Notes under the pieces: generated by a model | The model's input: the letters and a program-made list of their open reading frames with translations, nothing else | Told to the model about the DNA's origin: nothing | Database searches by the model: none | NCBI RefSeq assembly: GCF_008630635.1 | Contig: NZ_CP043869.1 | Location: 2,207,160-2,231,159 of the forward strand | Direction of reading: 5' to 3' | Length of the DNA: 24,000 nt | Source of the DNA: Neptunomonas concharum | GTDB lineage: Bacteria; Pseudomonadota; Gammaproteobacteria; Pseudomonadales; Balneatricaceae | Translations under genes and position numbers: made by a program | Shown here: positions 1,391 through 24,000 of the stretch, in pieces | Layout: every line of letters begins with the position of its first letter | Position numbering within the stretch: position 1 is the first letter of the stretch

Positions 1391-2013
1391 TATCGTTGTC
1401 CCAACTTGATCATCTCTAACTCACAGGCAAACAGAAACTCCAACCCCTCTAGGTGGCGACGCGCCTCTGCCATATCACGTCCCCAAGCGTATAAACCATG
1501 CCCCCTTACTAAAAACCCCCACTGTAAAGGGCGTTGCAGCCAACGTTGGTGTAGCTGCGCGGCCAATTCAGGCATATCTTGCGTGTTGTCAAAAACATGA
1601 ATAGCGGCTTCAGCATCGTGAGTGGTGTTTCCCGACAGGGATTTCTGCATTTCATAGCCACGCAATGTGAGTACATCCCCGTCCACAAGACGCGACAATA
1701 CTGTCGATGAAACGGAGTGAGTATGCAGTACAGCGCCAATATCAGCATCTAGTCCATAAAGAGCCATATGTAATAAAGTTTCTGCAGATGGCCGCTTCTC
1801 TGAGCCAATCACCACACCCTTGAGATCTACCTGTAGTAGATCCTCTGGCGTCAAAGCACCTTTATGCTTACCTGACGCCGTAACCCAAGCGTGCTTTGCA
1901 TCTATACGAACAGAGAAGTTTCCACCGGTTGCTGGGCACCAACCTTGCTGATCAATCCACTTCCCCGCATCAATAACGGATTGTTTAAGAGTATCTGGCA
2001 TTTGAACATTCAC
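1390..2013 (-). CDS. mtnB: Methylthioribulose-1-phosphate dehydratase (class II aldolase/adducin fold)
   Basis: 207 aa. GWCPATGGNFSVR and the HTHS metal-site motifs are typical of MtnB. The ORF-track start is GTG 2013; an in-frame ATG at 2001 is an alternative. Neither has a clear SD. Confidence 0.88.
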   Translation of the reverse strand: MNVQMPDTLKQSVIDAGKWIDQQGWCPATGGNFSVRIDAKHAWVTASGKHKGALTPEDLLQVDLKGVVIGSEKRPSAETLLHMALYGLDADIGAVLHTHSVSSTVLSRLVDGDVLTLRGYEMQKSLSGNTTHDAEAAIHVFDNTQDMPELAAQLHQRWLQRPLQWGFLVRGHGLYAWGRDMAEARRHLEGLEFLFACELEMIKLGQR

Positions 2014-2085
2014 GAAGTAACAAAATTGATAGTTTACGAGAAGTTTTCAATCAGACGAAGGGAAAGCAGAATTATTTTAAAGACA

Positions 2086-2108
2086 GGGGCGGCCATTTCG
2101 ACCGCCCC
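2086..2108. repeat. GC-rich inverted repeat GGGGCGG-N9-CCGCCCC in the mtnB/purT divergent intergenic region
   Basis: Perfect 7-bp GC stem read directly from the sequence. There is no T-run on the plus strand and only a weak T-rich tract on the minus strand. Confidence 0.3.
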
Positions 2109-2114
2109 ATCATT

Positions 2115-2133
2115 AACCGAAATGATTTCGGTT
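2115..2133. promoter_or_regulatory. Perfect 19-bp palindrome AACCGAAAT-G-ATTTCGGTT, a candidate operator
   Basis: 9+9 perfect inverted repeat with a 1-nt centre, which is too tight for an RNA hairpin loop and typical of a dimeric regulator site. It lies between the divergent mtnB and purT genes. Confidence 0.3.
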
Positions 2134-2266
2134 GAAGTGCCCGAAGGCAAAGGAGACATATGAAAAAACTAACCAACGCTTTCGCAATGCGTACTACCTA
2201 AATTCACATGATTCAGTATAGCTAATAAGTAACAAAGTCCAATGTCTGATTTTTCTTCTGATCACG

Positions 2267-2272
2267 TATAAT
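2267..2272 (+). promoter_or_regulatory. Candidate purT -10 hexamer (perfect TATAAT)
   Basis: TATAAT lies 34 nt upstream of the purT ATG. No convincing -35 is present (GTCTGA at 17-bp spacing). Confidence 0.3.
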
Positions 2273-2305
2273 GACTGAATTATTTTCATTGAAGGATAAA
2301 AACTC

Positions 2306-3487
2306 ATGGCAACAATTGGCACCCCTCTTGCTGCAAACGCAACCCGTGTGTTGATGTGTGGTGGTGGAGAACTAGGCAAAGAAGTCGTCATCGAACTACA
2401 AAGATTAGGGGTAGAGGTGATTGTGGTTGACCGCTACGCGAACGCGCCGGCCATGCAAGTTGCCCACAGAAGCCATGTTATCTCGATGCTGGATGGCGAA
2501 GCATTGCGAGAAGTCATTCAAGCCGAGAAACCAGACTTAATCGTCCCAGAGATAGAAGCCATTGCCACGGACACATTGATCGAGCTTGAAGCTGAAGGGT
2601 TTACTGTCATTCCAACCGCCAATGCAACTCGTTTAACCATGAACCGTGAAGGAATTCGTCGTTTAGCCAGCGAAACTCTTGGTTTAAAGACATCTCCCTT
2701 CAAGTTTGCTGAAACCCGTGAAGAGTATCTCGCGGCCATTCAGGACATTGGGCTCCCCTGTGTTGTAAAACCGATCATGAGTTCTTCAGGCAAAGGCCAA
2801 AGTACGGTGAAAACTGAAGATCAGATAGAGAGCGCTTGGCAATACGCCCAAGAGGGAGGCCGAGCAGGTCAAGGTAAGGTGATTATAGAAGGCTTCGTCG
2901 ATTTCGACTACGAGATAACTTTGCTCACTGTTCGACATACCAATGGCACCGCTTTTTGTGAGCCCATCGGCCACGTTCAAGTGGATGGGGACTATCGCCA
3001 ATCCTGGCAGCCACAAGCGATGTCCTCAGCAGCACTAAGCGCAGCCAAAGATGCAGCATTGAAGGTTACCGAAGCTTTAGGCGGCCGAGGGTTATTTGGT
3101 GTTGAACTTTTTATCAAAGGCGATGAAGTACTCTTTAGTGAAGTGTCACCAAGACCCCATGATACCGGTATGGTTACCATGATATCTCAAGATTTATCGG
3201 AATTTGCACTGCACGCCCGCGCTATATTAGGGTTGCCTATTCCAAACATTCATTTTCATGGCCCTAGTGCCTCCAGTGTTATTTTAGTTGAGGGCAACTC
3301 TAATAAGGCACAGTTTGCTGGTTTAGACGCTGTACTGGCGATGCCAGATACTCAGCTACGCCTATTCGGTAAGCCCGAAGTGGCCGGACAACGGCGCATG
3401 GGTGTTGTACTTGCCCGCGATAATACGGTGGAATCAGCAATCTCTAAAGCCAGTAAAGCTTCCTCTAACATCACGGTTACCCTTTAA
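2306..3487 (+). CDS. purT: Formate-dependent phosphoribosylglycinamide formyltransferase (GAR transformylase 2, ATP-grasp)
   Basis: 393 aa. The N-terminus [23 protein letters not shown] and full-length similarity match PurT. AAGGA lies 9 nt upstream of the ATG. Confidence 0.95.
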
Positions 3488-4214
3488 CATCCGCCGATTC
3501 AGGCTGAACCAGCGCATACCAAAGCTGGTTCAGCTCGGACCGTAGCGCGATTGCGGTTTTCAAAGCGCTTTGAAAGTCTGCTGTATTAAGGTGTTCAAAT
3601 AGCGGCAACTTCGCCAGTGCCGCCTCCTCGCAGCCAAACTCTTCACTCAATGCCGCGACATCAAGCCAAGGAGAGCCTAAGCCTGCATACTCCCAGTCGA
3701 GTACAACAAGCTGCTGCTTGTTCTGCAAAAGATTCCCTATGTGTAAATCGTGGTGCGCTAGGCAATATGGAATCTTAGGCAATGCACCAAATAACCGCCT
3801 TGTCCGATCCAGATTTTCTTGAAGGGAAGCCCGTTGTTCGGATGCTGATATGGCATCTATCTTTTCTTGGTAACCTTTCCAGATTAAATCGTACTTCTGT
3901 TCAGGCACATCAGATATTGATTGCCACTGCGCCACAATAGCCAACAGATCAGCTTGCGCTGGCATATTGCTAAGTTCCTGATACTCGCACAGGATCAACT
4001 GATCTACCGAAGACTCTAAAACATCAGGAGCCCAACTAAACCCTGCTATACGCGCCAATACTTGCTGCTCTCTTTGCCGATTAATACCCGGAATATCACT
4101 GCGACAATTTATCCTAAGGACGGCAGGCTGATTTTTATAAGTACCAACAAATAGTGTATTCGTCGTACCTGAATGGCCTTCAAGAGGCCGCCACCCCGCT
4201 AAGGTCAACGCCAT
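3477..4214 (-). CDS. Choline/ethanolamine/thiamine-kinase-family phosphotransferase; thiamine kinase is likely from context
   Basis: 245 aa with the Brenner-type catalytic loop [10 protein letters not shown] and the downstream VVLDWEYAG motif. It is transcribed divergently from the riboswitch-controlled thiBPQ operon. Its 3' end overlaps the purT 3' end by 11 nt. Confidence 0.6.
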
Positions 4215-4284
4215 TTTAGTATGCCCTTAAGCATTGATTATCATCCTTCACCACTACTCACTGTTGATCACACTTATGGTACTA

Positions 4285-4372
4285 TAGCGCCCTCTTATCG
4301 GGGTGTCTGTATCGGTGCAGACTGAGATTTTACCCGTCGAACCTGATCCGGGTTATACCGGCGTAGGGAATA
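4285..4372 (+). promoter_or_regulatory. TPP (THI-box) riboswitch
   Basis: Conserved core read directly: GGGGTG...CTGAGA...ACCC...ACCTGATCCGGGTTATACCGGCGTAGGGAA. It lies immediately 5' of thiB. Confidence 0.9.
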
Positions 4373-4378
4373 AAGGAC

Positions 4379-5353
4379 ATGATGAAAAAACTTTTTACAG
4401 GCTTATTACTCTCTAGCGCAACAACTCTACACGCGGCAGATCTGACCATCTATACCTATGATTCATTTGTATCAGAATGGGGCCCCGGACCTAAGCTGGA
4501 AACTGCCTTCGAACAAGAATGCCAATGTGATATTGAATTTATCGCGGTAGAAGATGGCGTCAGCATTTTAAACCGTGCTCGCATTGAACAAGCACGCACG
4601 AAGGCTGACGTTCTGCTTGGGCTGGATAACTCCCTTACCGAGATTACCCGTGAAGCGAAACTGACACAACCTCATAATATTTCACTCGATCCAATTAGTG
4701 CACATCTTAATGGGCAGGACGATACCTTCGTACCTTTTGACTATGGGTATTTCTCGTTCATTTATGACAGTGAGAAAATTCAACAACCTGCTACCTCACT
4801 AAAAGCCCTGATTGAGTCAGAAGCCTCCGTTATCTATCAGGACCCGCGCACCAGTACACCAGGACAAGGATTGATGCTATGGGTTAAGGCCGTTTATGGT
4901 GATGAAGCACCCTCTGCCTGGAAACAACTTGCAAGCCACACTGTCACCGTCACTAAAGGCTGGTGGGAAGCGTATAGCATGTTCCTAAAGGGTGACGCCG
5001 ATTATGTTCTCAGCTACAACACATCCCCTGCCTACCATCAGGTTGCTGAACAAAAGAATCAATATAAAGCAGCGCGTTTTTCCGAAGGACACATTGTACA
5101 AACAGAGGTTGCTGCCATTTCAGCTTATGCGCAAAACCCAGCTCTGGCTCAGCAGTTCCTGACGTTTCTTATCTCCCCAAAAGCGCAGTCCATTATCCCT
5201 GTCACGAACTGGATGTTACCGGTCATCGACGATGTTACACTGCCCGAAGCATTTGATAGTCTGATCAAGCCTAAAACCATCGGCTTTACAGCTGAGCAGA
5301 TTGCCAAGCAGCGTCAACAATGGATTAGAGAGTGGCGCGCTTCTGCCAATTAG
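4379..5353 (+). CDS. thiB: Thiamine/TPP ABC transporter periplasmic binding protein
   Basis: 324 aa. It has a signal peptide (MMKKLFTGLLLSSATTLHA/AD) and ThiB/TbpA-like sequence, and it is followed by thiP and thiQ downstream of a TPP riboswitch. Confidence 0.9.
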   Translation: MMKKLFTGLLLSSATTLHAADLTIYTYDSFVSEWGPGPKLETAFEQECQCDIEFIAVEDGVSILNRARIEQARTKADVLLGLDNSLTEITREAKLTQPHNISLDPISAHLNGQDDTFVPFDYGYFSFIYDSEKIQQPATSLKALIESEASVIYQDPRTSTPGQGLMLWVKAVYGDEAPSAWKQLASHTVTVTKGWWEAYSMFLKGDADYVLSYNTSPAYHQVAEQKNQYKAARFSEGHIVQTEVAAISAYAQNPALAQQFLTFLISPKAQSIIPVTNWMLPVIDDVTLPEAFDSLIKPKTIGFTAEQIAKQRQQWIREWRASAN

Positions 5354-8764: not shown

Positions 8765-9883
8765 ATGAAAACCATACAGATATTTAGCCAGAATGAGGTT
8801 TTAACCAACGCTCTGCAAGAAATACTGGCCAGCTACCGTATTGCTTCAGACAGCATGCACCCACTACAACGCCTGCTGCCAGAGTCCTCCTTAGTACTGA
8901 TTGATGCACAAGACCTAAAACATACCCACAATGTGGTTTTAGAATGCAGACACAGGCAAGTCCCCTGTTTTTTATTTTGGTCTAATGAATCACAAGATTT
9001 ACGTAATCAGGCGTTTGAATCTGGCTTTTCAGACTTTTTAATGCCGCCATTCTTTCCTTCTGTTGTGGCATCTAAAGTAAAAACACATATTAATATTGCT
9101 GAGATGGTACGCTCCTACACCAGTAAAGTAGCAGCTCCCAACCACTGTAATGACTCATTAGACCATGAGTTATTAGCCGTGCAAGATGCAGCTATTCTTT
9201 GCTTAGCAGCGGTTGCCAGAGTCCGTGATCATTCAACCGGAAACCATATTTTAAGAACCCAGCACTACGTCAAGGCGCTGGCTGAACACCTTCGCTTTCA
9301 TCCTGATTACCGAACGGAACTGGATGATGATGAAACTATTGAGCTTTTCTATAAGACCGCATCCTTACATGATATCGGCAAAGTAGGTATCCCAGATGCT
9401 ATTTTACAAAAGCCTGGAAAGCTTGATGCACAAGAGTATGAAGAGATGAAAAAGCATACCATTTATGGGTATCAAGCGATTCACTCTGCAGAGTTACTTT
9501 TGGAGAGAGAAACGAAAGGGAAAGCCTCCAAATTTTTGAAGATTGCTCAAGAAGTTACCTTGAGTCACCATGAGCGTTGGGATGGCCAGGGTTATCCGCA
9601 AGGTCTCAAAGGAGATGAAATTCCTGTCGTTGCACGCTTAATGTCGGTGGCAGATGTATATGATGCGGTTATCTCTCGTCGACCATATAAAGACGCAATT
9701 GAGCACACAAGCGCCTGCGACATTATACTGCAAGGCAGAGGCACCCTGTTTGATCCAGCTGTGGTAGATGCGTTTGAGGACTTACAAGAGACCTTTGATA
9801 AGATCTCCTATATTCTGGAAGACTACTTTCCTTCTCAGTCAGACCTCACCTTACATGGCTTGGATGACTTGATCTATAAATAG
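8765..9883 (+). CDS. HD-GYP domain c-di-GMP phosphodiesterase with an N-terminal degenerate receiver-like domain (RpfG-like architecture)
   Basis: 372 aa with the HD motif LHDIGKVGIP and the GYP motif HHERWDGQGYPQGL. The N-terminal ~115 aa have a CheY-like beta/alpha pattern but lack the acidic pair and the conserved Lys. Confidence 0.85.
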   Translation: MKTIQIFSQNEVLTNALQEILASYRIASDSMHPLQRLLPESSLVLIDAQDLKHTHNVVLECRHRQVPCFLFWSNESQDLRNQAFESGFSDFLMPPFFPSVVASKVKTHINIAEMVRSYTSKVAAPNHCNDSLDHELLAVQDAAILCLAAVARVRDHSTGNHILRTQHYVKALAEHLRFHPDYRTELDDDETIELFYKTASLHDIGKVGIPDAILQKPGKLDAQEYEEMKKHTIYGYQAIHSAELLLERETKGKASKFLKIAQEVTLSHHERWDGQGYPQGLKGDEIPVVARLMSVADVYDAVISRRPYKDAIEHTSACDIILQGRGTLFDPAVVDAFEDLQETFDKISYILEDYFPSQSDLTLHGLDDLIYK

Positions 9884-9937
9884 TTACTTAGCGAGAAAAA
9901 CCGCTCAAACGAACGGCTTTTCCCACCTACCAATGCA

Positions 9938-11530
9938 TTAGCCTGCAACACCTTGGCTTCTTAAATAATCTTCATAGGTACCACGGAAATCTACGATACC
10001 TGTTGGCGTTAACTCGATGATGCGCGTTGCCAATGAAGACACGAACTCCCGGTCATGACTGACAAAAATCAACGTACCTGGATAGTTTTCTAACGCCAGA
10101 TTTAAGGACTCAATAGACTCCATATCCAAATGGTTGGTTGGCTCATCCAGTAACATAACGTTTGGCTTTTGAAGAATCAGTTTACCAAACAACATACGTC
10201 CTTGCTCACCACCTGATATCACCTTAACCGACTTATCGATCTCTTTTTGCGAGAACAACAAACGGCCTAATGTGCCGCGAATAACCTGTTCATCATCCCC
10301 TTCTTTGCCCCAGTCCCCCATCCATGCCAAGAGGGTTTTATCTGTCTCAAAGTCTTTCGCATGATCCTGAGCATAGTAGCCAAGCTCTGCATTTTCAGAC
10401 CACTTAACCTCACCCGAGGTGGGCTCCAAATCACCAACTAGACATTTTAGCAAGGTACTTTTACCAATACCGTTAGGGCCGATGACCGCGATACGCTCTC
10501 CGACCTCAACCATCAAATTGAAGCCAGAGAAAAGCGGCTCATCAAAGGATTTGCTCAAGCCTTCCACTTCAAGGGCCAAACGATGTAGCTTTTTGTCTTG
10601 CTCAAAGCGAATAAAAGGGTTCTGACGGCTGGAAGGCTTAACCTCTTCCAGCTGAATTTTATCAATCTGTTTTGCACGGGAGGTGGCTTGTCTGGATTTT
10701 GAAGCATTAGCCGAGAAGCGGCTAACAAATGCTTTTAGATCTGAAATCTGGGCTTTCTTTTTAGCGTTTTCAGAAAGCAGACGCTCACGAGCCTGAGTCG
10801 ATGCGGTCATATACTCATCATAAGAACCGGGATAAACCCTAAGCTCACCATAATCCAGATCGGCCATGTGGGTGCACACACTATTTAGAAAGTGGCGATC
10901 ATGGGAAATAATGATCATGGTGCAGTTACGCTCGTTTAAAACACCTTCCAGCCAACGAATCGTATTGATATCCAAGTTGTTGGTAGGCTCATCCAATAGC
11001 ATGATATCTGGATCAGCAAACAGAACCTGCGCCAACAGGACACGAAGCTTCCAGCCCGGTGCGATTTCACTCATTGGGCCATAATGCTGCTCTAGTGGAA
11101 TACCAACCCCTAGCAACAATTCACCTGCGCGGGATTCGGCGGTATAGCCATCCATCTCGGCAAACTCACCTTCAAGCTCACCGGCGCGAATACCATCCTC
11201 TTCACTCATATCCGGGTTTGCATAGATGGCATCGCGTTCCTCTTTAACTTTCCACAGCTCTTCATAGCCCATGATAACCGTATCAATCACGCGATACTCT
11301 TCATAAGCGAATTGATCCTGCTTTAGTTTACCGATGCGCTCGTTCGGATCTTTTGAGACATTGCCACTGCTTGGCTCTAGGTCGCCACCTAGAATCTTCA
11401 TAAAGGTGGATTTACCACATCCATTAGCGCCAATTAGGCCGTAGCGGTTCCCGTCACCAAATTTAACGGATACATTTTCAAAGAGCGGCTTAGCGCCGAA
11501 CTGCATGGTGATATTCGCGGTTGTAAGCAA
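9938..11530 (-). CDS. ybiT: ABC-F family ATPase (YbiT-type, two ABC domains, no permease)
   Basis: 530 aa. The N-terminus [53 protein letters not shown] is close to my recollection of E. coli YbiT. Two Walker A, signature and Walker B sets are present. The start codon is TTG. Confidence 0.9.
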
Positions 11531-15423: not shown

Positions 15424-17655
15424 ATGACTACAAATAAACATACAATTTATTACACCCTAACAGATGAAGCACCGTCTCTGGCGACCTGCTCGCTGTTACC
15501 TATTGTCCGTGCTTTTACATCGGCAGCAGGTATTGACGTTAAAATCACTGATATCTCATTGGCCGGGCGCGTATTAGCCGCTTTCCCCGAGAACCTGACA
15601 GACGAGCAGAAGGTTGAAGACGGCTTGGCTTTCTTGGGTGACCTCACGCAAGATCCTGATGCAAACATCGTTAAACTACCTAACATCAGTGCATCTATTC
15701 CACAGCTGAAAGGCTGTATCTCTGAGCTGCAATCTCAGGGCTATAACATCCCGAACTTCCCAGAAGCGCCATCAACGGACGAAGATAAAGAGATCCGTGC
15801 GCGCTACTCTAAAATCCTTGGCAGTGCCGTAAACCCTGTTCTGCGTGAAGGTAACTCAGACCGTCGTGCGCCGGCTGCAGTAAAAGCCTTCGCTCGTAAG
15901 TTCCCTCACTCTATGGGCGCATGGAGCAAGGCATCTCGTACTCACGCAGACTATATGCGTAACGGTGATTTCTTCTCCAGTGAACAGTCTATTACCATGC
16001 CTGAAGCTGGCGACGTGCGTATCGAATTCGTCTCTAAAGATGGTCAAGTAGAAGTTAAAAAAGAACTTTCACTGGAAAAAGGTGAAATTCTGGACAGCAT
16101 GCGCATGAGCTGCAAAGCGTTGCGCGACTTCTTCGAAGAGTCTTTACAAGACGCTAAAGAAACAGGCGTTATGTGGTCGCTTCACGTTAAAGCAACCATG
16201 ATGAAGGTGTCTCACCCTATCGTATTTGGTCACGCGGTAACCGTATTCTACAAAGAGCTGTTCGATAAGTACGGCGACCTGTTCAAAGAGTTAGGCGTTA
16301 ACCCGAACAATGGTATCGGTAGCGTATATGACAAAATTGCAGATCTGCCTCGCTCTAAGCGCGAAGAGATCGAAGAAGCGATTCACGCATGCCATGAGCA
16401 CCGTCCAGAACTAGCGATGGTTGACTCGGTTAAAGGTATCACGAACCTGCACGTACCTTCAGACGTTATCGTCGATGCATCTATGCCAGCGATGATTCGT
16501 AACTCTGGTAAAATGTGGGGCCCTGATGGACGTCCAAAAGATACTAAAGCCGTTATGCCAGAGAGCACTTACGCGCGTATCTACCAAGACATGATCAACT
16601 TCTGTAAAACAAACGGCGCATTCGACCCTACAACCATGGGCTCTGTTCCTAACGTAGGCCTGATGGCTAAAAAAGCAGAAGAATACGGCTCGCATGATAA
16701 AACCTTCGAAACAGAAGAAGGCACAATGCGCGTGGTAGCTGCCGACGGTACAGTACTGATGCAGCATGAAGTAGAAGCTGGCGACATCTGGCGTGCTTGC
16801 CAAACGAAAGATGAGCCTGTACGCGACTGGGTTAAACTGGCTGTAAACCGCGCTCGCCAATCAAACACTCCTGCTGTTTTCTGGTTAGACCAAGAACGTG
16901 CTCACGATCTGGAACTGACTAAGAAAGTTAAAGAGTACCTGAAAGAACACGACACCGAAGGCCTAGACATCACTATTAAGTCGTACAGCCAAGCTATCCG
17001 TTTCTCGATGGATCGCATGATTCGTGGCAAAGACACTATCTCTGTTACCGGTAACGTACTACGTGACTATCTGACTGACCTGTTCCCAATCATGGAACTA
17101 GGTACTTCAGCGAAAATGCTGTCGATCGTCCCCATGCTGAAAGGCGGTGGAATGTACGAAACAGGCGCAGGCGGATCTGCACCGAAACACGTACAACAGG
17201 TAGAAGAAGAAAACCATCTACGTTGGGACTCACTGGGCGAATTCCTTGCATTGGCCGTATCTTTAGAAGATATGGGTATCAAGCAAGGCAACAAGCGCGC
17301 TGCAATTTTGGCTAAAACGCTAGATGCAGCAACCGGCAAACTGTTGGAAAACAACAAGTCACCTTCACGTAAAACAGGTGAGCTGGACAACCGCGGAAGC
17401 CACTTCTACCTAGGTATGTACTGGGCGCAAGAAACCGCAGCACAGACCGAAGATCCAGAACTGGCCGCACATTTCGCAGGCCTTGCAAAAACACTGACCG
17501 AGAACGAAGAAAAGATCATTGGCGAGTTGGCTGCCTGCCAAGGCAAACCTGCAGACCTAGATGGTTACTACCACGCTAAGCGTGAAACAGTAAAACGCGT
17601 CATGCGCCCAAGCGCAACGCTAAACGCTGCCTTAGCTGCCGTTAACCCATCATAA
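15424..17655 (+). CDS. icd: Monomeric NADP-dependent isocitrate dehydrogenase (about 80 kDa type)
   Basis: 743 aa. The N-terminus [21 protein letters not shown] and the length are characteristic of monomeric IDH. GGGGA lies 6 nt before the ATG. Confidence 0.95.
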
Positions 17656-17703
17656 GATCGACCAACATAGCGAAGTAATTCGCTAATGTTAAAAGTTAAA
17701 AAA

Positions 17704-17725
17704 CCCTGCTTTGGCAGGGTTTTTT
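17704..17725. terminator. Bidirectional rho-independent terminator shared by icd (+) and the 1504-aa gene (-)
   Basis: CCCTGC-TTTG-GCAGGG stem-loop flanked by an A-run upstream (AAAAAA) and a T-run downstream (TTTTTT), so it reads as a terminator on both strands. Confidence 0.8.
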
Positions 17726-17773
17726 CGTTTAGATGGTCGGGAAGTAGTTATCGCAGTGACCTCTCTGTCATAA

Positions 17774-17793
17774 TGAGTCAACTAAAACTCTTT
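17774..17793. repeat. Left copy of an imperfect 20-bp direct repeat flanking the 1504-aa gene
   Basis: TGAGTCAACTAAAACTCTTT matches TGAGTTAACAAAAAATCTTT at 22424..22443 at 17 of 20 positions. It lies 13 nt beyond the ORF stop. Confidence 0.4.
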
Positions 17794-17806
17794 ATTCTCT
17801 TTTTCC

Positions 17807-20800
17807 TTAATAACCTTCTTGAATTTCCTGAATATCACCCACTCCCAAGCCTATGAACTTATCCTGCAACGATAAAATACGATCAATCAACTCAATATCG
17901 TCACTCATATCAGCTTCTTGCAACATAACCTTTAAAGCAACAACAAGGTCATCTGAGCGATAGAAATGAACAGGCTCATCTGCTTGAGAGAGCCTATCTA
18001 ATAAAACTTCAAATATCTCAAGAACACCTAAAAAGTCATACATAACATAGATACTTGCCCAGACCAGTAAACCATCAAAGTCTCTATAATTATTCACCGG
18101 ACAGTGTCTGACAAACTTGGTTGCCAGAGAAATTGGCACCACTTTTGATATATCTCTCTTGGACATTTCTAAATCAAGATTAGTATAAATCTCAGCTACA
18201 TCACTGTTATCAAATAACCGTAAAAGACCTTTAATACACTTACCTTTTTGCTTGGTAGAAATAAGGTTGTGTGAGAAAACCTGCCCAATACCTACCCAAC
18301 AACCGTTTGTAGAAGCAGAAGCAGCTTTTTCAAACAGCTCATCTTCTGTTAAATGTCCGGCAAAATAACTTAGAGCAGCTAATCTACCCCAAGCTTCATG
18401 GCAATCTTCACTATTAGAAGTAAGGTATTGATTAAGGTAAGGATCAACTTTCTCAAAGCTTTGCGAGTATTGGTAATACAGACTCTGCTCAAGTTCTTTC
18501 CACAGTAACGAATCACTACCGCTAAACAAATTGTCTAACAGCTCCCAACCCAAACCAGGAACCCGTGAATGAAAGTAAGGAAACCTGCGCGCGAAACCAG
18601 CCCTAACAGGCATAGCTGCATCTTTTGAGTAGCGAGCCAATAAATCTATCAGCTCTTGTGGCAGGTTCTTTTCTTGATCTATAAGTCGGTTACTTATAAC
18701 CAACACTGATTCAGCAGCTATACCCCTAACGGAGTTAATCGCTGCTCCCATCAGTCCCATACTAGATACGTCTTTATCTACCTCAAGACTACTTGACGTC
18801 GATAAAACCCAAAGCTGGAAGCACAGTCTATCAATTTCGTTGTCAGTCTCAAGAATAAAGCTACAGGCTTGAACAGCATGGGTTAGACAATATCCTCTTT
18901 TATCTAATCCACCATACTTTTCAATCAACCCAAGAAGATTAAGTGCTAACGCATATCCGTCAGGGAGAGGATCTATTTTTCGCCAATCTTGATGTGAAGA
19001 ATTACCAAAGCGGGAGTTTAAATGATCTGATATACCTTCCAGTATCGATACAATGTATTTTCTGGAAAGACCTTCCTGAACGATACGTTCGATCAGCGGT
19101 AGAAACCGTATAGGCTCCAGAGTTGCTGCAGTCTTTAACGATTGAGTGATACTCTCCATATCTCCGAGGAGACGTGCACCCACCCGATCAGCAAAAGAAT
19201 AATAACCATCATAATGCCGAAGGACCTTAATCATCCACTCACTACTAAACTCTCTCAACGTGTCAGAAGATACAGGTGGAGAGACAACTCCCCCTATCGA
19301 ACTTTTATCTGGCTCCGCTCTTAAAACACCAAACCATGGAGAGTGTTTATCTATGATCTGAACAGCCTTTGTATTTCGGAAAATAGAAGGGATACAGACC
19401 AATAGCTCATATTTTTTTTCATCAATCCAATTCTCTTCACCATCATCGGAGTGCATTTCAAGCACGATTCTTTGGTATTGATCTTGTATTTCATCGGTTA
19501 AGTAAGGAAAAGAACAGCTTACTAATTCTGAAATCTCGTACCCAAACGAACCAAACTTTAGCAAGTCGGGATCTGTCAGTTGTCTAGAAATGCCATCGAG
19601 GTTATCAAGTACATTAAGCTTATATAGTTCTAGAAGAAGATAGCGAAGACCAAACTCAGGACTAGAACGAATCCTCTGCTGGAAATCATGCCACAACGCA
19701 TCACCACCAGCCTCTACCCTCACTCTCAAAGCCTTCTCAACAGAGGTCATAAGCTCACAGAACGAGTCATGACTGTGCATTCCAGGGCCACAATGCCTCC
19801 GAGCCCAAGAAGTGTCATATAAGAGATCCACACCATACTTATATAGCCCCTCCTTACCAAACCGCTCCAGGTACGATAACGCTAATTGAAGCAACTCATC
19901 GGAGTTCTGAAGTCTTCTAGTGAGAAACTCTTCGTCTATAAACGTATGGCGATCACAATTGAGTTGTATTTCTCGCCCACGCAGTACTTCTTCAGGCGAT
20001 TTGCACCCTTTAGTGATGTATTCCCACAGTAATAGATCCCCACTATTAGTACTTTCGACATACTGGCTAATTACCTTTCCCAGACTACCTCTTTCATCAC
20101 CAGCCATATCTAAGAGGCGCTTAAGAAGGCGATAAAACTCAGGTTCGTTCCAATGCCCAAAGTCCTCAATGCCATGCCCCACAGACCATAGCAGTTGACG
20201 ATTATGCATCCACTCATCATCAATAGCTTGATGCCAAATTGTTAACAGTTCCATCGGATAAGATTTCATAAACTTGGATGCATAAAAAAAGAACTTCGTT
20301 AACAACCCCCCATCTGCATCAACATTCATCCTTGGTAACCATAAGCTTTCAAGAAGTTCAAACCACTCATTTCCCTTCGCGGTATCCAGAAACCGATTGA
20401 ACATTAAAGGCTGACTGCGTGATATCTTCATCAAGACCATGGCATCAGACTCTCTAGGTGTACTTTCAGCAAGAGTCTCTATTACTAAACGCTTGAGATG
20501 GGCTGCAACTTCATCAGAATTGATAAAACGTAAAAGTTGCTTGATATATTGCCTCTCATCACTCCTAAGCTGCTGAGCATATGTGCGAACAGACGGTCTA
20601 ACAAAAGGAAGTTGGGCTTGGGAAAGAACAAAATCTGTGAGGTCATTACCAGACTTAATAACCAGTCTAACGCGCATAGCATCAGCTAAGGTTTGGTGAC
20701 TAAACATCAACTGGTTTGAGGTTACACGAGTAAGGACATCAGAACTCAACAACCGCTGAATCACTGTATTTGAAAGCGATAAAATAGAATCAGAAAATTG

Positions 20801-22321
20801 ATAACTTCGATCATCGAGTAGCCTCTGAGCCAAAACCTCTAACGCAGAAACTACATCATTACCTAATAGCGGGTCTTCAGCGACAATCGTCTGGATATAA
20901 TTATCGTGCAATTCATCAGCCTGGATTACTCCAGGGGACTGCCCACGTTCAATTAAGGTATAAAACAGTTTCAAATTCTGCGGGATAATCAATAGAGTCT
21001 GAAGCTCCTTACTCAGACCATCTGGGTCTACCCCAAGTTTGATCAAGAAAGGTGCCACATCGGCATTGTAATCAAGTGATGTCAGCCGGACCTTGCTAGC
21101 CCACTGTTTCTCACGCAGCAAAGGATCATATTTCGCATCAAAGCTTCTGCATGAAGCAATCACTGTTACATTCGGAAGATTTTCTAATTCGGCTATTAAC
21201 CCTAGAAATATCGCCAAAGAATGATGACTTCTGCCTAAAGCTAAGACATCCAAGGAATCAACAATAACCGTGAACTTATGACGTGAAGAGTACCTAGAAA
21301 CCTGCGCTACCAAATCTGTGGGCAGTCCATGTTCACTCAGTTGTTCTAGACTAGTTATAGAGGCGAATAAATCCCCCCGAATAAACAAAAAATCCTTATT
21401 CGTTGAAGACTCTAAATGATCAACAACATCTAACAGCACGCAAGTTTTACCACCACCAGCGACATCTTCAAGGAGGACGGAAGATACCCCATCCTCTATG
21501 GCTTGAATTAAATCAGCACATTCTTGGCGCGCTATTTTCTCTCCCCCAATACTCCTAGACCATTGCCGTCCAATAGATGAAAACGAATGAACACCGTTTA
21601 AAAAGCTTTCCTCATTAAAGTCACAGGATAAATAAACCCCCTTAGATTCCAGACTTTTTAAAACACTTTCCCTATCAATTAGGTATTGTGGTTCACCTAG
21701 TTTGCTGTGTTGGTGGTCTATATAACTCCAAAGCAACTCATATGTAAGCGTAGGATTGGAACAGATAGGCTCTAACAACTGTATACATATTTCCCCCCAG
21801 CTATTCACTGCATTGTGTTCGCCAATCTTTATTCGCCTACACAAGAGAAAAGCTTCATTTTCATCAACAGACCAAAAATCTGACAATTTAGCTAATACGG
21901 TTTTAACATTTTTAGCGGCAACTCTCTTAAACTCAGCAACCCCCGAATAAAGACAAGCTTCTTCAATAAATCGTTGAAAAACACCAAAAGGTGTACGGGA
22001 ATAGAAATAAAAGAGGCAGTTAGGGTCCACTGTTAACTGTTTCTTGGCTGATAATAGTTCTTCTTTTAAGACACTGTCCGATAGTCTCCAAAAGTGATGA
22101 TCTGCCTGATTCACTTTGGCCTGAATATAAGTTCTATTCCTATCTTTACTGATAAGAACAATATCATCGCCATAAACAAGCTCTGTCTCTTCTGGCAAGC
22201 CTACTGAATCAACCTGAACTGAAATTATTTCATCCTTCGTCAGCATCTTAACGATCCAGTAAACAGCTACAGACCGTTGATATGCATCTCCTCTATTTGA
22301 TCGGATACCAGCAAGACTCAT
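17807..22321 (-). CDS. Large tripartite protein: N-terminal Cap4/DUF4297-like PD-(D/E)xK nuclease motif, central NACHT/STAND-like P-loop NTPase, and an uncharacterised C-terminal region of about 1100 aa. Candidate single-gene NLR/Avs-like antiphage defence protein.
   Basis: Uninterrupted 1504-codon ORF. Residues 11-70 read GDAYQ...VQVDS...GDDIVL...YIQAKV. Walker A is DVAGGGKT (K292), Walker B is TVIVDSLDV (D355), and an IASCRS motif carries R392. The remainder is Leu/Trp-rich and looks helical. The DNA is AT-rich and lies next to a tRNA. Confidence 0.85.
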   Translation of the reverse strand: MSLAGIRSNRGDAYQRSVAVYWIVKMLTKDEIISVQVDSVGLPEETELVYGDDIVLISKDRNRTYIQAKVNQADHHFWRLSDSVLKEELLSAKKQLTVDPNCLFYFYSRTPFGVFQRFIEEACLYSGVAEFKRVAAKNVKTVLAKLSDFWSVDENEAFLLCRRIKIGEHNAVNSWGEICIQLLEPICSNPTLTYELLWSYIDHQHSKLGEPQYLIDRESVLKSLESKGVYLSCDFNEESFLNGVHSFSSIGRQWSRSIGGEKIARQECADLIQAIEDGVSSVLLEDVAGGGKTCVLLDVVDHLESSTNKDFLFIRGDLFASITSLEQLSEHGLPTDLVAQVSRYSSRHKFTVIVDSLDVLALGRSHHSLAIFLGLIAELENLPNVTVIASCRSFDAKYDPLLREKQWASKVRLTSLDYNADVAPFLIKLGVDPDGLSKELQTLLIIPQNLKLFYTLIERGQSPGVIQADELHDNYIQTIVAEDPLLGNDVVSALEVLAQRLLDDRSYQFSDSILSLSNTVIQRLLSSDVLTRVTSNQLMFSHQTLADAMRVRLVIKSGNDLTDFVLSQAQLPFVRPSVRTYAQQLRSDERQYIKQLLRFINSDEVAAHLKRLVIETLAESTPRESDAMVLMKISRSQPLMFNRFLDTAKGNEWFELLESLWLPRMNVDADGGLLTKFFFYASKFMKSYPMELLTIWHQAIDDEWMHNRQLLWSVGHGIEDFGHWNEPEFYRLLKRLLDMAGDERGSLGKVISQYVESTNSGDLLLWEYITKGCKSPEEVLRGREIQLNCDRHTFIDEEFLTRRLQNSDELLQLALSYLERFGKEGLYKYGVDLLYDTSWARRHCGPGMHSHDSFCELMTSVEKALRVRVEAGGDALWHDFQQRIRSSPEFGLRYLLLELYKLNVLDNLDGISRQLTDPDLLKFGSFGYEISELVSCSFPYLTDEIQDQYQRIVLEMHSDDGEENWIDEKKYELLVCIPSIFRNTKAVQIIDKHSPWFGVLRAEPDKSSIGGVVSPPVSSDTLREFSSEWMIKVLRHYDGYYSFADRVGARLLGDMESITQSLKTAATLEPIRFLPLIERIVQEGLSRKYIVSILEGISDHLNSRFGNSSHQDWRKIDPLPDGYALALNLLGLIEKYGGLDKRGYCLTHAVQACSFILETDNEIDRLCFQLWVLSTSSSLEVDKDVSSMGLMGAAINSVRGIAAESVLVISNRLIDQEKNLPQELIDLLARYSKDAAMPVRAGFARRFPYFHSRVPGLGWELLDNLFSGSDSLLWKELEQSLYYQYSQSFEKVDPYLNQYLTSNSEDCHEAWGRLAALSYFAGHLTEDELFEKAASASTNGCWVGIGQVFSHNLISTKQKGKCIKGLLRLFDNSDVAEIYTNLDLEMSKRDISKVVPISLATKFVRHCPVNNYRDFDGLLVWASIYVMYDFLGVLEIFEVLLDRLSQADEPVHFYRSDDLVVALKVMLQEADMSDDIELIDRILSLQDKFIGLGVGDIQEIQEGY

Positions 22322-22423
22322 GATTCAATATTTTCCGCCAAAGGCATAAACACTTATTGGGCGACATCATATCACTGATACTTCCCTGTAAAAAATCTCA
22401 CCAGCTAAGAGGGCCTTATCTTC

Positions 22424-22443
22424 TGAGTTAACAAAAAATCTTT
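22424..22443. repeat. Right copy of the imperfect 20-bp direct repeat flanking the 1504-aa gene
   Basis: TGAGTTAACAAAAAATCTTT lies 102 nt upstream of the ORF start codon and 98 nt from the tRNA 3' end. Confidence 0.4.
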
Positions 22444-22541
22444 CGCAAATGCCCTAAATGGTTTTTCCTTAAACTTTAGGCTTTAACACAACTACTGTGA
22501 AAAATAAATCGCATAGAAAAATCGTAGGATGTGGAAACATA

Positions 22542-22617
22542 TGGTGGAGCCTAGCGGGATCGAACCGCTGACCTGTTCGCTGCCAGCGAACCGCTCTCCC
22601 AGCTGAGCTAAGGCCCC
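22542..22617 (-). tRNA. tRNA-Ala (anticodon GGC)
   Basis: The reverse complement is GGGGCCTTAGCTCAGCTGGGAGAGCGGTTCGCTGGCAGCGAACAGGTCAGCGGTTCGATCCCGCTAGGCTCCACCA. It folds as a 76-nt cloverleaf with a G3:U70 Ala identity pair, anticodon loop CT-GGC-AG, T-loop TTCGATC and an encoded CCA. Confidence 0.95.
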
Positions 22618-22728: not shown

Positions 22729-24000
22729 TTATTCGTGTTTGATGCGGTTGCGCCCTTCAGCTTTTGCCGAGAACAACAGTTGATCAACCGTTGCCAGTAG
22801 TTGGGCGTAGTCTTTCTCTCCACTGGAGATGGTAACGCCCATACTCAGGGTTAGCCCTGCATGGTTTTCGTTTTTTTGCTGTTGCTCTACCAAGCTTCGT
22901 GTTTTTTCTGCCCATTTAAGTGCGCCATCTAAGCCGGTTTCTGGTAGCAGTACAACAAACTCATCTCCACCCCAGCGTGCAAACACGTCAACGTCTCTGA
23001 TTTGTGACTGTACTTGCTTAACCACGGAGAGTAATACGGTATCACCGTAGGTATGCCCAAACTGGTCATTTACTCTTTTGAATTTATCTAGGTCAAACAT
23101 CACAATGGCCATTGTGTGATCAAAACGTATGCAACGGGCGCTTTCTGCTTCGAGTTGCTTTTCAAAGCTTCTACGATTGTTGATACCTGTTAGCGGGTCT
23201 GTGGCGGCGGCTGCACGAAGCTCTTCAATTAGGCGTGCGCGCTCAGAAATATCCCGTAGTACCGCCGTCATTTCGGTGGTTTGCCCTACTCTGATTTTTG
23301 AGATGGTGACTTCTAATGGAAATTCTGTCCCATCTTGGCGCAGCCCCATTACGGATGCTCGGGTATGCATGGGGCGTGACATGACAGGTGATTCATTAAA
23401 GCCTGCAACATAGTCGTTATGCTTATGCCTAAAACGCCCCGGTAATAAGTTGACCAAAGGCATGCCAACGGCATCCTGATGCGCTATATCAAACATTTCG
23501 CCTGCGGCCTGATTAAACATTTTGATATTTTGGTCATTATCAATGGTGATGATGCCGTCGTAAGCGGAGTTAATCACCGCTTCAAAGCGTTTCATGCTGG
23601 TTTCAAGGCTTTTTTCCAGCTCTTTTTTCTCGGTGATTTCAATGCTGGTACTCAGGACGCGCACCACCTCCCCATTTCGGCTAACCAGAGGTGAGTAGTT
23701 AAAGCGCCACCAACGAGGTCGGCCATGCCGCTCTATGACGATTTCATTTTCGATAGATTTCTGGTCTTTTACACAGGTAATCAGTGCTTCTTTCACATCT
23801 TTAACGATATACCGTGGTATGACTGCATTAACGTCATGCCCAATAAGAGAGGAGACCTCGCTATCAACAATTTGCTGAAAGAGTGTATTGCCGCTGACAA
23901 AGTTGAATTTGCCGTTTTTCGCTCTCTCCCAAATAGACACCGGTGTGCCTATCGCTTCTATTTGGCTTGCCAGCTCAGAATGTGTACCACTAAGAAACAT
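22729..24000 (-). CDS. PAS-PAS-GGDEF diguanylate cyclase (5' end may lie beyond the window edge)
   Basis: At least 423 aa. It has two PAS-like segments followed by a GGDEF domain with an intact active site (RWGGDEFVVLL) and an RxxD I-site (RDVD) 5 residues upstream. The ORF reaches the window end at an ATG, so the true start is uncertain. Confidence 0.9.
   Translation of the reverse strand: MFLSGTHSELASQIEAIGTPVSIWERAKNGKFNFVSGNTLFQQIVDSEVSSLIGHDVNAVIPRYIVKDVKEALITCVKDQKSIENEIVIERHGRPRWWRFNYSPLVSRNGEVVRVLSTSIEITEKKELEKSLETSMKRFEAVINSAYDGIITIDNDQNIKMFNQAAGEMFDIAHQDAVGMPLVNLLPGRFRHKHNDYVAGFNESPVMSRPMHTRASVMGLRQDGTEFPLEVTISKIRVGQTTEMTAVLRDISERARLIEELRAAAATDPLTGINNRRSFEKQLEAESARCIRFDHTMAIVMFDLDKFKRVNDQFGHTYGDTVLLSVVKQVQSQIRDVDVFARWGGDEFVVLLPETGLDGALKWAEKTRSLVEQQQKNENHAGLTLSMGVTISSGEKDYAQLLATVDQLLFSAKAEGRNRIKHE

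What the first reader, a model, noticed from the sequence alone, without database searches (positions are those of the whole stretch)
17726..22541. AT-rich single-gene islet inserted at the 3' side of tRNA-Ala(GGC), with no mobility gene
I hand-counted G+C in five 60-nt lines inside the big ORF (starting at 17821, 18001, 19381, 20281, 21301). They gave 24, 18, 20, 24 and 28 of 60, roughly 30-47%. Four lines in flanking genes (3001, 5401, 12001, 16801) gave 33, 26, 32 and 33 of 60, roughly 43-55%. The segment lies between the icd terminator and the 3' end of a tRNA, a classic integration hotspot. Even so, it contains no integrase, transposase or recombinase ORF, and I could find no convincing copy of the tRNA 3' end at the distal border. 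It looks like an old or trans-mobilised acquisition, or a variable hotspot cargo.
Basis: partly seen in the sequence, partly recalled or inferred. Interest (0 to 1): 0.6.

Follow-up and report, generated by a model that had tools for sequence, protein, structure and literature searches.

The report
Lone Avs7 antiphage gene beside tRNA-Ala
The AT-rich stretch is real and holds one horizontally acquired gene, a 1504-residue Avs7-type antiviral sensor with a nuclease domain, sitting just past a tRNA gene that carries integrase-borne defence islands in two sister species; this is an ordinary defence-hotspot pattern.

Summary
Window 17726-22541 has 40.7% G+C against a genome mean of 46.4% (1.4th percentile of same-size windows). 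Tetranucleotide distance is in the top 2%, and GC3 of the ORF is 35.5% against 44.8%.

The only gene (17807-22321, minus strand) matches SeAvs7 (PDB 9N00) over its full length (E 5e-159). It has a Cap4 nuclease, a STAND NTPase and an alpha-solenoid sensor, with the catalytic and ATP-binding residues conserved.

It was not found in 40 relatives, 11 of them congeners. Copies 86-88% identical in DNA lie in unrelated contexts, one beside an IS6-family transposase, and only the ORF is shared.

In two congeners the same tRNA-Ala(GGC) carries a P4-type integrase island on its 3' side. One has a full Gabija system and one has tRNA-end att repeats.

Here there is no integrase and no tRNA-end repeat. 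There is only a 17/20 direct repeat bracketing the gene (2 of 1000 shuffles reach it).

No empty site could be shown, because icd and this tRNA are 40-260 kb apart in all congeners.

Verdict: a new member of a known family in a known kind of hotspot; the route of arrival is unresolved. First-stage notes of this scan had already flagged the same ORF on this window as Avs-like.

The parts
17698..17725 (.). Perfect 12-bp inverted repeat (AAAAAACCCTGC / GCAGGGTTTTTT). It is an intrinsic terminator readable on both strands, 43 nt after the icd stop and 82 nt after the avs7 stop.
   Evidence: the repeat finder pair I22 and the sequence. All congeners also have a hairpin terminator after icd.
17774..17793 (+). 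Left copy of an imperfect 20-bp direct repeat (TGAGTCAACTAAAACTCTTT), 14 nt beyond the avs7 stop codon.
   Evidence: It matches its partner at 17 of 20 positions. Only 2 of 1000 dinucleotide shuffles of the two spacers reach this. Only one other match with up to 3 mismatches exists in the whole genome. Six other Avs7 loci give best matches of only 12-15 of 20.
17807..22321 (-). avs7-like gene, 1504 aa and intact (stop codon 17807-17809).
   Evidence: Full-length phmmer match to SeAvs7 (PDB 9N00): E 5.3e-159, residues 1-1498 against 1-1514. A family profile scores 1752.8 bits against the same chain.
21557..22321 (-). Residues 1-255: Cap4-type PD-(D/E)xK dsDNA nuclease effector, with D52, D53, Q67 and K69.
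   Evidence: These four residues are invariant in 26 and in 31 homologues. PADLOC gives LmuA at 4.6e-6 and a HamA match. Pfam Cap4_nuclease is hit in 3 family members. The AF2 model's best fold match is Avs3 8DGC, E 1e-16.
20402..21556 (-). Residues 256-640: STAND (NACHT-like) NTPase. Walker A is G289-G-G-K292-T293, Walker B is D355/D358, and the sensor-1 arginine is R392.
   Evidence: These residues are invariant in the family. They align to SeAvs7 K291/T292, D358 and R395, which coordinate ATP-Mg in the structure (paper). Fold matches are Avs3, Avs4, NLRP3, NLRP9, NLRC4 and NOD2.
17810..20401 (-). Residues 641-1504: all-alpha TPR/solenoid sensor homologous to the capsid-binding sensor of SeAvs7.
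   Evidence: phmmer of residues 900-1504 against 9N00 gives E 1.7e-55, aligned to SeAvs7 918-1514. The AF2 model has pLDDT 85 and is entirely helical.
22322..22541 (-). 220-nt spacer between the tRNA 3' end and the avs7 start codon. It holds a weak sigma-70-like site (22501-22473) and no terminator after the tRNA.
   Evidence: It has no homologue in any fetched locus or elsewhere in the genome. tRNA 3' flanks diverge right after CCA in all congeners.
22424..22443 (+). Right copy of the imperfect 20-bp direct repeat (TGAGTTAACAAAAAATCTTT), 99 nt from the tRNA 3' end.
22542..22617 (-). tRNA-Ala(GGC), intact with encoded CCA. It is 100% identical in nine congeners.
   Evidence: ARAGORN, Rfam tRNA at 60 bits and the genus search.

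Best explanation
The segment is a horizontally acquired single-gene anti-phage locus. Its only gene encodes an Avs7-family antiviral STAND NTPase with three parts: an N-terminal Cap4-type PD-(D/E)xK nuclease, a NACHT-like ATPase, and a C-terminal alpha-solenoid sensor of about 860 residues.

The mechanism is inferred by homology with Salmonella SeAvs7. The sensor would wrap the HK97-fold major capsid protein of an infecting tailed phage. ATP-dependent oligomerisation through the NTPase and Cap4 domains would then assemble an active nuclease that degrades dsDNA and aborts the infection. Host EF-Tu might act as an enhancer.

The gene sits on the 3' side of tRNA-Ala(GGC). In this genus that site is an integration and variable-cargo hotspot, occupied in two congeners by P4-type-integrase islands, one of which carries Gabija. 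In this genome no integrase or tRNA-derived att repeat remains.

Shown here: the composition, the domain homology, the conserved catalytic residues, the failure to find the gene in relatives, and the hotspot behaviour of the tRNA in congeners. Inferred: the capsid trigger, the abortive nuclease outcome, and the route of acquisition.
For: Identity of the gene:
- Full-length match to SeAvs7 (9N00/9N01/9YIX), E 5.3e-159. The family profile scores 1752.8 bits.
- Each third of the protein matches on its own.
- Cap4 D52/D53/Q67/K69, Walker A K292/T293, Walker B D355/D358 and R392 are invariant. They align to SeAvs7 K291/T292, D358 and R395.
- The N-terminal model (pLDDT 87.5) best matches Avs3 and Avs4, then animal NLRs.
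- Sensor residues N1196 and Y1282 align to the SeAvs7 capsid-contact residues N1204 and Y1289 and are invariant.

Function of the family: bioRxiv 10.64898/2026.01.04.697583.

Horizontal acquisition:
- G+C, GC3 and tetranucleotide deviation.
- Not found in 40 relatives.
- Copies 86-88% identical in DNA occur in unrelated flanks, one with an IS6-family transposase, and similarity is confined to the ORF.
- The family is scattered over many phyla, and this protein is closer to cyanobacterial copies (33-35%) than to enterobacterial ones (27-28%).
- Family genes average 5.2 G+C points below their flanks.

Hotspot:
- Integrases lie next to tRNA-Ala(GGC) in G004 and G006.
- GajA and GajB are in the G006 island.
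- tRNA-end repeats lie 51.6 and 58.1 kb away in G004.
- In 5 of 80 family loci a tRNA or tmRNA lies within 500 bp, always with the gene on its 3' side.
Against: - Identity to the characterised SeAvs7 is only about 27-28%, as read from enterobacterial homologues, so the trigger specificity is not established for this clade.
- Two of five EF-Tu contact residues (SeAvs7 Q999 and D1059) and one capsid contact (N1361) are not conserved. The paper says the EF-Tu interface is confined to one Avs7 clade.
- No empty site, att repeat or integrase ties the gene's arrival to the tRNA. The icd-tRNA adjacency is itself a rearrangement unique to this genome.
- Foldseek on the sensor model returned only generic solenoids. 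The structure library used appears not to hold 9N00.
Confidence: 0.8

Rival explanations
1. Route A: the gene is the remnant of a larger integrase-borne tRNA-Ala(GGC) island. The integrase, distal att site and other cargo would have been lost in the deletion or rearrangement that brought icd next to the tRNA.
For: Congeners carry P4-type integrase islands exactly at this tRNA, with defence cargo. The icd-tRNA junction is a synteny breakpoint unique to this genome. The gene occupies the position where the integrase sits in G004 and G006. A Methylophilaceae locus has integrase, an HTH gene, avs7 and tRNA-Arg as a mini-island.
Against: No integrase fragment fits in the 151-nt and 220-nt spacers. 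No tRNA-end repeat is present anywhere. The spacers share nothing with the congeners' islands.
Confidence: 0.35
2. Route B: integrase-free acquisition. One option is replacement of hotspot cargo by homologous recombination in conserved flanks after transfer from a close relative. The other is short-homology or illegitimate insertion of a 4.65-kb cassette, marked by the 17/20 direct repeat.
For: The 17/20 direct repeat brackets the ORF and its upstream region, and only 2 of 1000 shuffles reach it. Other Avs7 loci next to tRNAs (L082, L122) also lack integrases. Published defence hotspots often show no detectable mobile element (PMC10121019).
Against: The longest identical run in the repeat is 5 nt, and the repeat length was chosen after the fact. 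The repeats lie outside the region shared with the 88%-identical copies. Bracketing repeats are not seen in six other loci. No close relatives are available to show flank-mediated exchange.
Confidence: 0.35
3. Route C: delivery by an IS6/IS26-type composite transposon or another transposable unit, followed by loss of the IS copies.
For: The closest homologue (89% aa) lies 370 nt downstream of an IS240/IS6-family transposase gene.
Against: There is no IS, inverted repeat or 8-bp target duplication at the borders in this genome. DNA similarity to that contig stops 11 nt upstream of the start codon.
Confidence: 0.1
4. The gene is vertically inherited, and its low G+C reflects only the amino-acid make-up of a long helical-repeat protein.
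For: Avs7-family genes are generally lower in G+C than their surroundings, which could partly be a composition effect of the protein.
Against: GC3 is also low, at the 2.5th percentile. The gene was not found in 11 congeners or in 29 further relatives. Near-identical copies occur in unrelated contexts.
Confidence: 0.03

Closest known systems
SeAvs7 (Salmonella enterica Avs7; PDB 9N00, 9N01, 9YIX; Lee et al., bioRxiv 10.64898/2026.01.04.697583)
   Same: Same length class (1504 against 1523 aa). Same order of Cap4 nuclease, STAND NTPase and TPR sensor, alignable end to end. The nuclease and ATP-binding residues are the same. Capsid-contact residues N1204 and Y1289 and EF-Tu-contact residues D1003, K1044 and H1048 are conserved.
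   Different: It belongs to a distant clade, about 27-28% identical to enterobacterial members and 40-45% to marine gammaproteobacterial ones. The residues aligned with SeAvs7 Q999, D1059 and N1361 differ, so use of EF-Tu and the phage range are unknown. The host is a marine-type gammaproteobacterium with 46% G+C.
Avs3 and Avs4 (PDB 8DGC, 8DGF; they sense terminase and portal)
   Same: Cap4-type or related nuclease followed by a STAND NTPase. They are the best fold matches for the N-terminal 640 residues, E 1e-16 and 7e-14. The logic is the same: a phage protein triggers oligomerisation, which activates the nuclease.
   Different: There is no sequence-level match. The sensors are different and recognise different phage proteins.
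tRNA-linked defence hotspots (E. coli hotspots, PMC10121019; P. aeruginosa core defence hotspots, PMC10250203)
   Same: Variable anti-phage cargo lies next to a tRNA or between core genes, often without any detectable mobile element. P4-type integrases are present in some occupants (for this genus).
   Different: Only one genome per species was available here. Hotspot behaviour is therefore shown between species of a genus, not within a pan-genome, and the other boundary (icd) is not a conserved flank.
Dsr1 (defence-associated sirtuin 1)
   Same: According to the paper it shares the Avs7-type capsid-sensing domain.
   Different: Dsr1 has a SIR2 effector and no STAND NTPase. That architecture is not present here.

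Membership tests
Avs7 (antiviral STAND family 7) | Sensor domain homologous to the SeAvs7 bilobed TPR sensor | tested here: met
   Residues 900-1504 alone match SeAvs7 918-1514 at E 1.7e-55. The full-length match is E 5.3e-159. The AF2 model is all-helical with pLDDT 85. The bilobed shape itself was not verified, and Foldseek gave only generic solenoids.
Avs7 (antiviral STAND family 7) | STAND NTPase with intact Walker A, Walker B and sensor-1 arginine | tested here: met
   G289xGK292T293, D355/D358 and R392 are invariant in 26 and 31 homologues. They align to SeAvs7 K291/T292, D358 and R395. Fold matches are Avs3, Avs4 and NLR NACHT modules.
Avs7 (antiviral STAND family 7) | N-terminal effector (Cap4 PD-(D/E)xK nuclease in SeAvs7; the family has at least 20 effector types) | tested here: met
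   D52, D53, Q67 and K69 are invariant. PADLOC LmuA and HamA and Pfam Cap4_nuclease match in family members. Residues 1-255 align to the SeAvs7 Cap4 domain.
Avs7 (antiviral STAND family 7) | Activation by the phage major capsid protein, and anti-phage protection | not testable with these tools
   Shown for SeAvs7 and EcDsr1 only (paper). Here it is inferred from homology.
Avs7 (antiviral STAND family 7) | EF-Tu incorporation (a feature of one Avs7 clade) | tested here: inconclusive
   Three of five contact residues are conserved (D991, K1032, H1036). Two are not (V987 aligns with Q999, and Ala aligns with D1059). The paper restricts this interface to one clade.
Integrase-mediated tRNA genomic island | Tyrosine integrase gene within the island | tested here: not met
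   The segment has a single ORF of 100 aa or more, the spacers are 151 and 220 nt, and no integrase is present. Congeners G004 and G006 do have one at this tRNA.
Integrase-mediated tRNA genomic island | Direct repeat of the tRNA 3' end at the distal border (attR) | tested here: not met
   There is no match with up to 3 of 23 mismatches in the window and no partial copy in the genome. G004 shows such repeats.
Integrase-mediated tRNA genomic island | Empty site in relatives (the tRNA flanked directly by the distal core gene) | tested here: not met
   icd and tRNA-Ala(GGC) are 40-260 kb apart in all congeners where both were placed. Downstream neighbours of icd and 3' neighbours of the tRNA differ between species.
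Defence hotspot (variable cargo at a conserved site) | Different cargo, including defence systems, at the same anchor in related genomes | tested here: met
   The 3' flank of the identical tRNA holds different cargo in each species. In G006 it is an integrase plus Gabija. In G004 it is an integrase plus an island of about 58 kb. In G001, G002, G003 and G005 it is metabolic genes. In this genome it is Avs7.

The most novel reading that the evidence does not exclude
The 17/20 direct repeat (17774-17793 and 22424-22443) could mark the ends of a 4.65-kb, integrase-free single-gene defence cassette. It would have been inserted about 100 nt downstream of the tRNA by a recombinase acting in trans or by a short-homology mechanism. 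That would be a way for lone giant defence genes to move into tRNA-proximal sites that has not been described. The gene might also be transcribed by read-through from the tRNA promoter, since no terminator follows the tRNA.
Probability: 0.08. Interest if true: 0.55.

Novelty: new member of a known kind. Interest (0 to 1): 0.3.

Why it matters
The segment gets a specific, testable function: a capsid-sensing Avs7 nuclease from a marine-type gammaproteobacterium, in a clade far from the only characterised member. That makes it useful for asking how far capsid recognition and EF-Tu co-option extend in the family. It also adds a between-species example of a tRNA-linked defence hotspot in which the occupant has no mobility gene. 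It does not reveal a new kind of system.

Tried and rejected
- Pfam and NCBIfam on the protein alone gave no hits. Identity came from the solved-structure sequence search instead.
- The search for a copy of the tRNA 3' end at the distal border or elsewhere found none. None was found in five other tRNA-adjacent Avs7 loci either.
- The empty-site comparison across 11 congeners failed, because synteny around both icd and the tRNA is broken at this divergence (81-87% IDH identity).
- A metagenome scan for close relatives of the protein found none.
- The flanks of the 86-89% homologues have no similarity to this genome.
- Foldseek on the sensor model returned only importin/HEAT-like solenoids with TM 0.2-0.35. 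This is uninformative, and 9N00 is apparently not in that library.
- Bracketing direct repeats were sought in six other Avs7 loci and none was significant.
- Rfam on the segment found only the tRNA, plus sub-threshold hits on the terminator hairpin.
- The spacers have no homologue in any fetched locus.
Full report
**1. Observation**

The window is positions 2207160-2231159 of a single-contig genome of 3.56 Mb with 46.4% G+C.

- The segment 17726-22541 has 40.7% G+C. Among all same-size windows this is z = -2.7, and 1.36% of windows are as low or lower.
- Its tetranucleotide distance from the genome is 0.273 against 0.160 +/- 0.045, with 2% of windows as far or farther.
- The sliding profile falls at about 17700 and recovers at about 22500.
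- GC3 of the ORF is 0.355 against 0.448 +/- 0.045 for 1589 long ORFs, while icd, creD, the ABC-F gene and the GGDEF gene have 0.467-0.489. The deviation is therefore real and is not only a consequence of amino-acid content.

ARAGORN places tRNA-Ala(GGC) at 22542-22617 on the minus strand, with its 3' end towards the ORF. The segment holds one ORF of 100 aa or more, at 17807-22321 on the minus strand, 1504 aa.

The flanks are creB, creC, creD and a monomeric NADP isocitrate dehydrogenase on one side, and a PAS-GGDEF diguanylate cyclase on the other.

**2. What the gene is**

Pfam and NCBIfam give nothing for the protein alone. PADLOC gives weak LmuA and HamA nuclease matches at the N-terminus.

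A search of about 5.8 billion proteins found 44 homologues of about 1500 aa. They are named, where named at all, 'hypothetical' or 'AAA family ATPase', and some have AAA, NACHT or AAA_16 Pfam hits. An exhaustive HMMER search with residues 1-700 found 184 cluster representatives at E <= 1e-30 and 1415 at E <= 1e-10.

A profile of 26 homologues matches one solved structure over its whole length: 9N00/9N01/9YIX, 1523 aa, 1752.8 bits. The protein alone matches it at E 5.3e-159 over residues 1-1498.

These entries are apo SeAvs7 and its complexes with a phage major capsid protein and EF-Tu (Lee et al., bioRxiv 10.64898/2026.01.04.697583). The paper reports the following:

- SeAvs7 protects E. coli against Drexlerviridae phages.
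- It is triggered by the major capsid protein, which its bilobed TPR sensor envelops.
- With ATP-Mg it assembles into an asymmetric tetramer whose Cap4 domains form an active dsDNA nuclease.
- EF-Tu is incorporated and enhances assembly.

**3. Residue-level check**

| Feature | This protein | SeAvs7 | Conserved? |
|---|---|---|---|
| Cap4 nuclease motif | D52, D53, Q67, K69 | aligned Cap4 domain | invariant in 26 and 31 homologues |
| Walker A | G289, G291, K292, T293 | K291, T292 | invariant |
| Walker B | D355, D358 | D358 (aligned to D355) | invariant |
| Sensor-1 arginine | R392 | R395 | invariant |
| Capsid contact | N1196 | N1204 | yes, invariant |
| Capsid contact | Y1282 | Y1289 | yes, invariant |
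| Capsid contact | Ile | N1361 | no |
| EF-Tu contact | V987 | Q999 | no |
| EF-Tu contact | D991 | D1003 | yes |
| EF-Tu contact | K1032 | K1044 | yes |
| EF-Tu contact | H1036 | H1048 | yes |
| EF-Tu contact | Ala | D1059 | no |

The SeAvs7 residues K291/T292, D358 and R395 correspond to the ATP-Mg ligands named in the paper. The paper's text swaps the numbers of the first two.

An AlphaFold2 model of residues 1-640 (pLDDT 87.5) best matches Avs3 (8DGC, E 1e-16) and Avs4 (8DGF), followed by the NACHT modules of NLRP9, NLRP3, NLRC4 and NOD2.

The model of residues 641-1504 (pLDDT 85) is entirely helical. In the structure library it matches only generic solenoids, and that library evidently lacks 9N00.

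I conclude that the gene is an intact member of the Avs7 family from a clade distant from SeAvs7.

**4. Horizontal origin**

- The protein was not found in 40 related genomes, including 11 of the same genus.
- Its nearest relatives (89% and 86% aa, 88% and 86% DNA) are on short contigs whose flanks have no similarity to this genome.
- DNA similarity to those contigs runs only from 11 nt before the start codon to the stop codon.
- One of these contigs has an IS240/IS6-family transposase just upstream.
- The next relatives (40-45%) are in Marinomonas, Zhongshania, Endobugula, Methylococcales and Microbulbifer. After them come cyanobacteria (33-35%), and only then enterobacteria (27-28%). This order does not follow organismal relationships.
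- A few relatives lie on predicted viral or proviral contigs.
- In 76 family loci with enough flank, the gene has lower G+C than its surroundings in 64, by 5.2 points on average. The 5.4-point deficit here is therefore typical of the family.

**5. The site**

*The tRNA in congeners.* The tRNA is 100% identical in nine congeners. Sequence on its 3' side diverges immediately after CCA in every species.

- In G004 and G006 the first gene there is a P4-type tyrosine integrase, with Arm-DNA-bind_3, Phage_int_M and Phage_integrase domains.
- The G006 island carries a complete Gabija system: GajA at E 1e-265 and GajB at E 9e-209.
- G004 has two further copies of the last 23 nt of the tRNA, 51.6 and 58.1 kb away. 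This is the signature of tandem integrated elements.
- In G001, G002, G003 and G005 the flank holds unrelated metabolic genes.

The 3' flank of this tRNA is thus a variable site and an integration target in the genus.

*This genome.* There is no integrase, and no tRNA-end repeat in the window or the genome. A P4-type integrase 47-56% identical to those of G004 and G006 does exist in this genome, but it lies next to tRNA-Pro(GGG), 258 kb away.

*Other family loci.* Among 80 family loci elsewhere, five have a tRNA or tmRNA within 500 bp, and in all five the gene is on the tRNA's 3' side. One of them (Methylophilaceae) is an integrase, HTH gene, avs7 and tRNA-Arg mini-island. Two others lack an integrase, as here. 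None has a tRNA-end repeat within reach.

**6. No empty site**

In all congeners where both genes could be placed, tRNA-Ala(GGC) lies 40-260 kb upstream of icd and in a different relative order. The genes downstream of icd also differ between species. The icd-tRNA adjacency is therefore a rearrangement junction peculiar to this genome, and the avs7 gene lies exactly at it.

This fits loss of the rest of an island during a rearrangement, but it does not prove it.

**7. Direct repeat**

Following a first-stage note, I tested the 20-mers at 17774-17793 and 22424-22443.

- They match at 17 of 20 positions.
- Only 2 of 1000 dinucleotide shuffles of the two spacers reach that.
- The whole genome has just one further match with up to 3 mismatches, which is about the chance expectation.
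- Six other Avs7 loci reach only 12-15 of 20.

The repeat is therefore unlikely to be chance (roughly p 0.002-0.01 after allowing for the post-hoc choice of length). However, its longest identical run is 5 nt, and it lies outside the DNA shared with the close homologues. Its meaning is open: a decayed target duplication, short-homology insertion, or coincidence.

**8. Expression signals**

- A perfect 12-bp hairpin flanked by A and T runs (17698-17725) can terminate both icd and avs7.
- The 220-nt spacer upstream of avs7 has only a weak promoter-like site (22501-22473) and no terminator after the tRNA. Read-through from the tRNA promoter is therefore possible but untested.
- Rfam finds nothing but the tRNA.

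**9. Comparison with what is known**

tRNA loci account for 18 of the 41 defence hotspots in E. coli. In the richest hotspot, 68% of occupied cases show no detectable mobile element. P. aeruginosa core hotspots likewise sometimes show 'no identifiable modes of mobilization' (PMC10121019).

A lone defence gene next to a tRNA without a mobility gene is therefore a known pattern.

**10. Verdict**

The cargo is a new member of the recently characterised Avs7 family. The site behaves as a hotspot in the genus. The route of arrival (remnant of an integrase island, integrase-free insertion or exchange, or a transposon) is unresolved. Interest is modest.

Noticed in passing
L057 (G006:C12:320200-340199), 1497-4903 minus strand, and integrase at 18470-19666 minus strand: A congener carries a complete Gabija system (GajA, GajB) in a low-G+C island. 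The island is headed by a P4-type integrase immediately 3' of the identical tRNA-Ala(GGC).
   Followed up: yes
L052/L053 (G004:C11:683000-743999): In G004, two extra copies of the last 23 nt of tRNA-Ala(GGC) lie 51.6 and 58.1 kb from the tRNA. They delimit tandem integrated elements that include an 1800-aa polyvalent protein (LPD3/LPD38 domains).
   Followed up: partly
L145 (G000:C1:2478000-2496000), 9759-11265: This genome has a classic tRNA-Pro(GGG) plus P4-type integrase arrangement 258 kb from the window. It probably heads another genomic island, whose cargo was not examined.
   Followed up: no
window 15424-22617 compared with congeners: Gene order around icd and tRNA-Ala(GGC) is heavily rearranged within the genus. 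The tRNA lies 40-260 kb upstream of icd in all congeners but 4.9 kb downstream here. The downstream neighbours of icd differ in nearly every species.
   Followed up: partly
window 22729-24000 (runs beyond the window end): The PAS-GGDEF gene on the 5' side of the tRNA is also variable. A 53%-identical counterpart sits there only in G004, while the next gene (G000 2231300-2232636) is the conserved 5' neighbour in the other congeners.
   Followed up: partly
L048 71-766: The closest Avs7 homologue (89% aa, from public sequencing-run assemblies) lies just downstream of an IS240/IS6-family transposase gene and a 71-aa ORF.
   Followed up: partly
L085 10001-14518: An Avs7 homologue next to a tmRNA gene in a Candidatus Electrothrix genome is split into two ORFs (275 and 1207 aa). 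It may be a frameshifted pseudogene.
   Followed up: no
window 19757-19795 (residues 843-855): Of the His/Cys cluster HCGPGMHSHDSFC noted by the first stage, only H843 is nearly invariant in the family alignment. A conserved metal site is therefore unlikely.
   Followed up: partly
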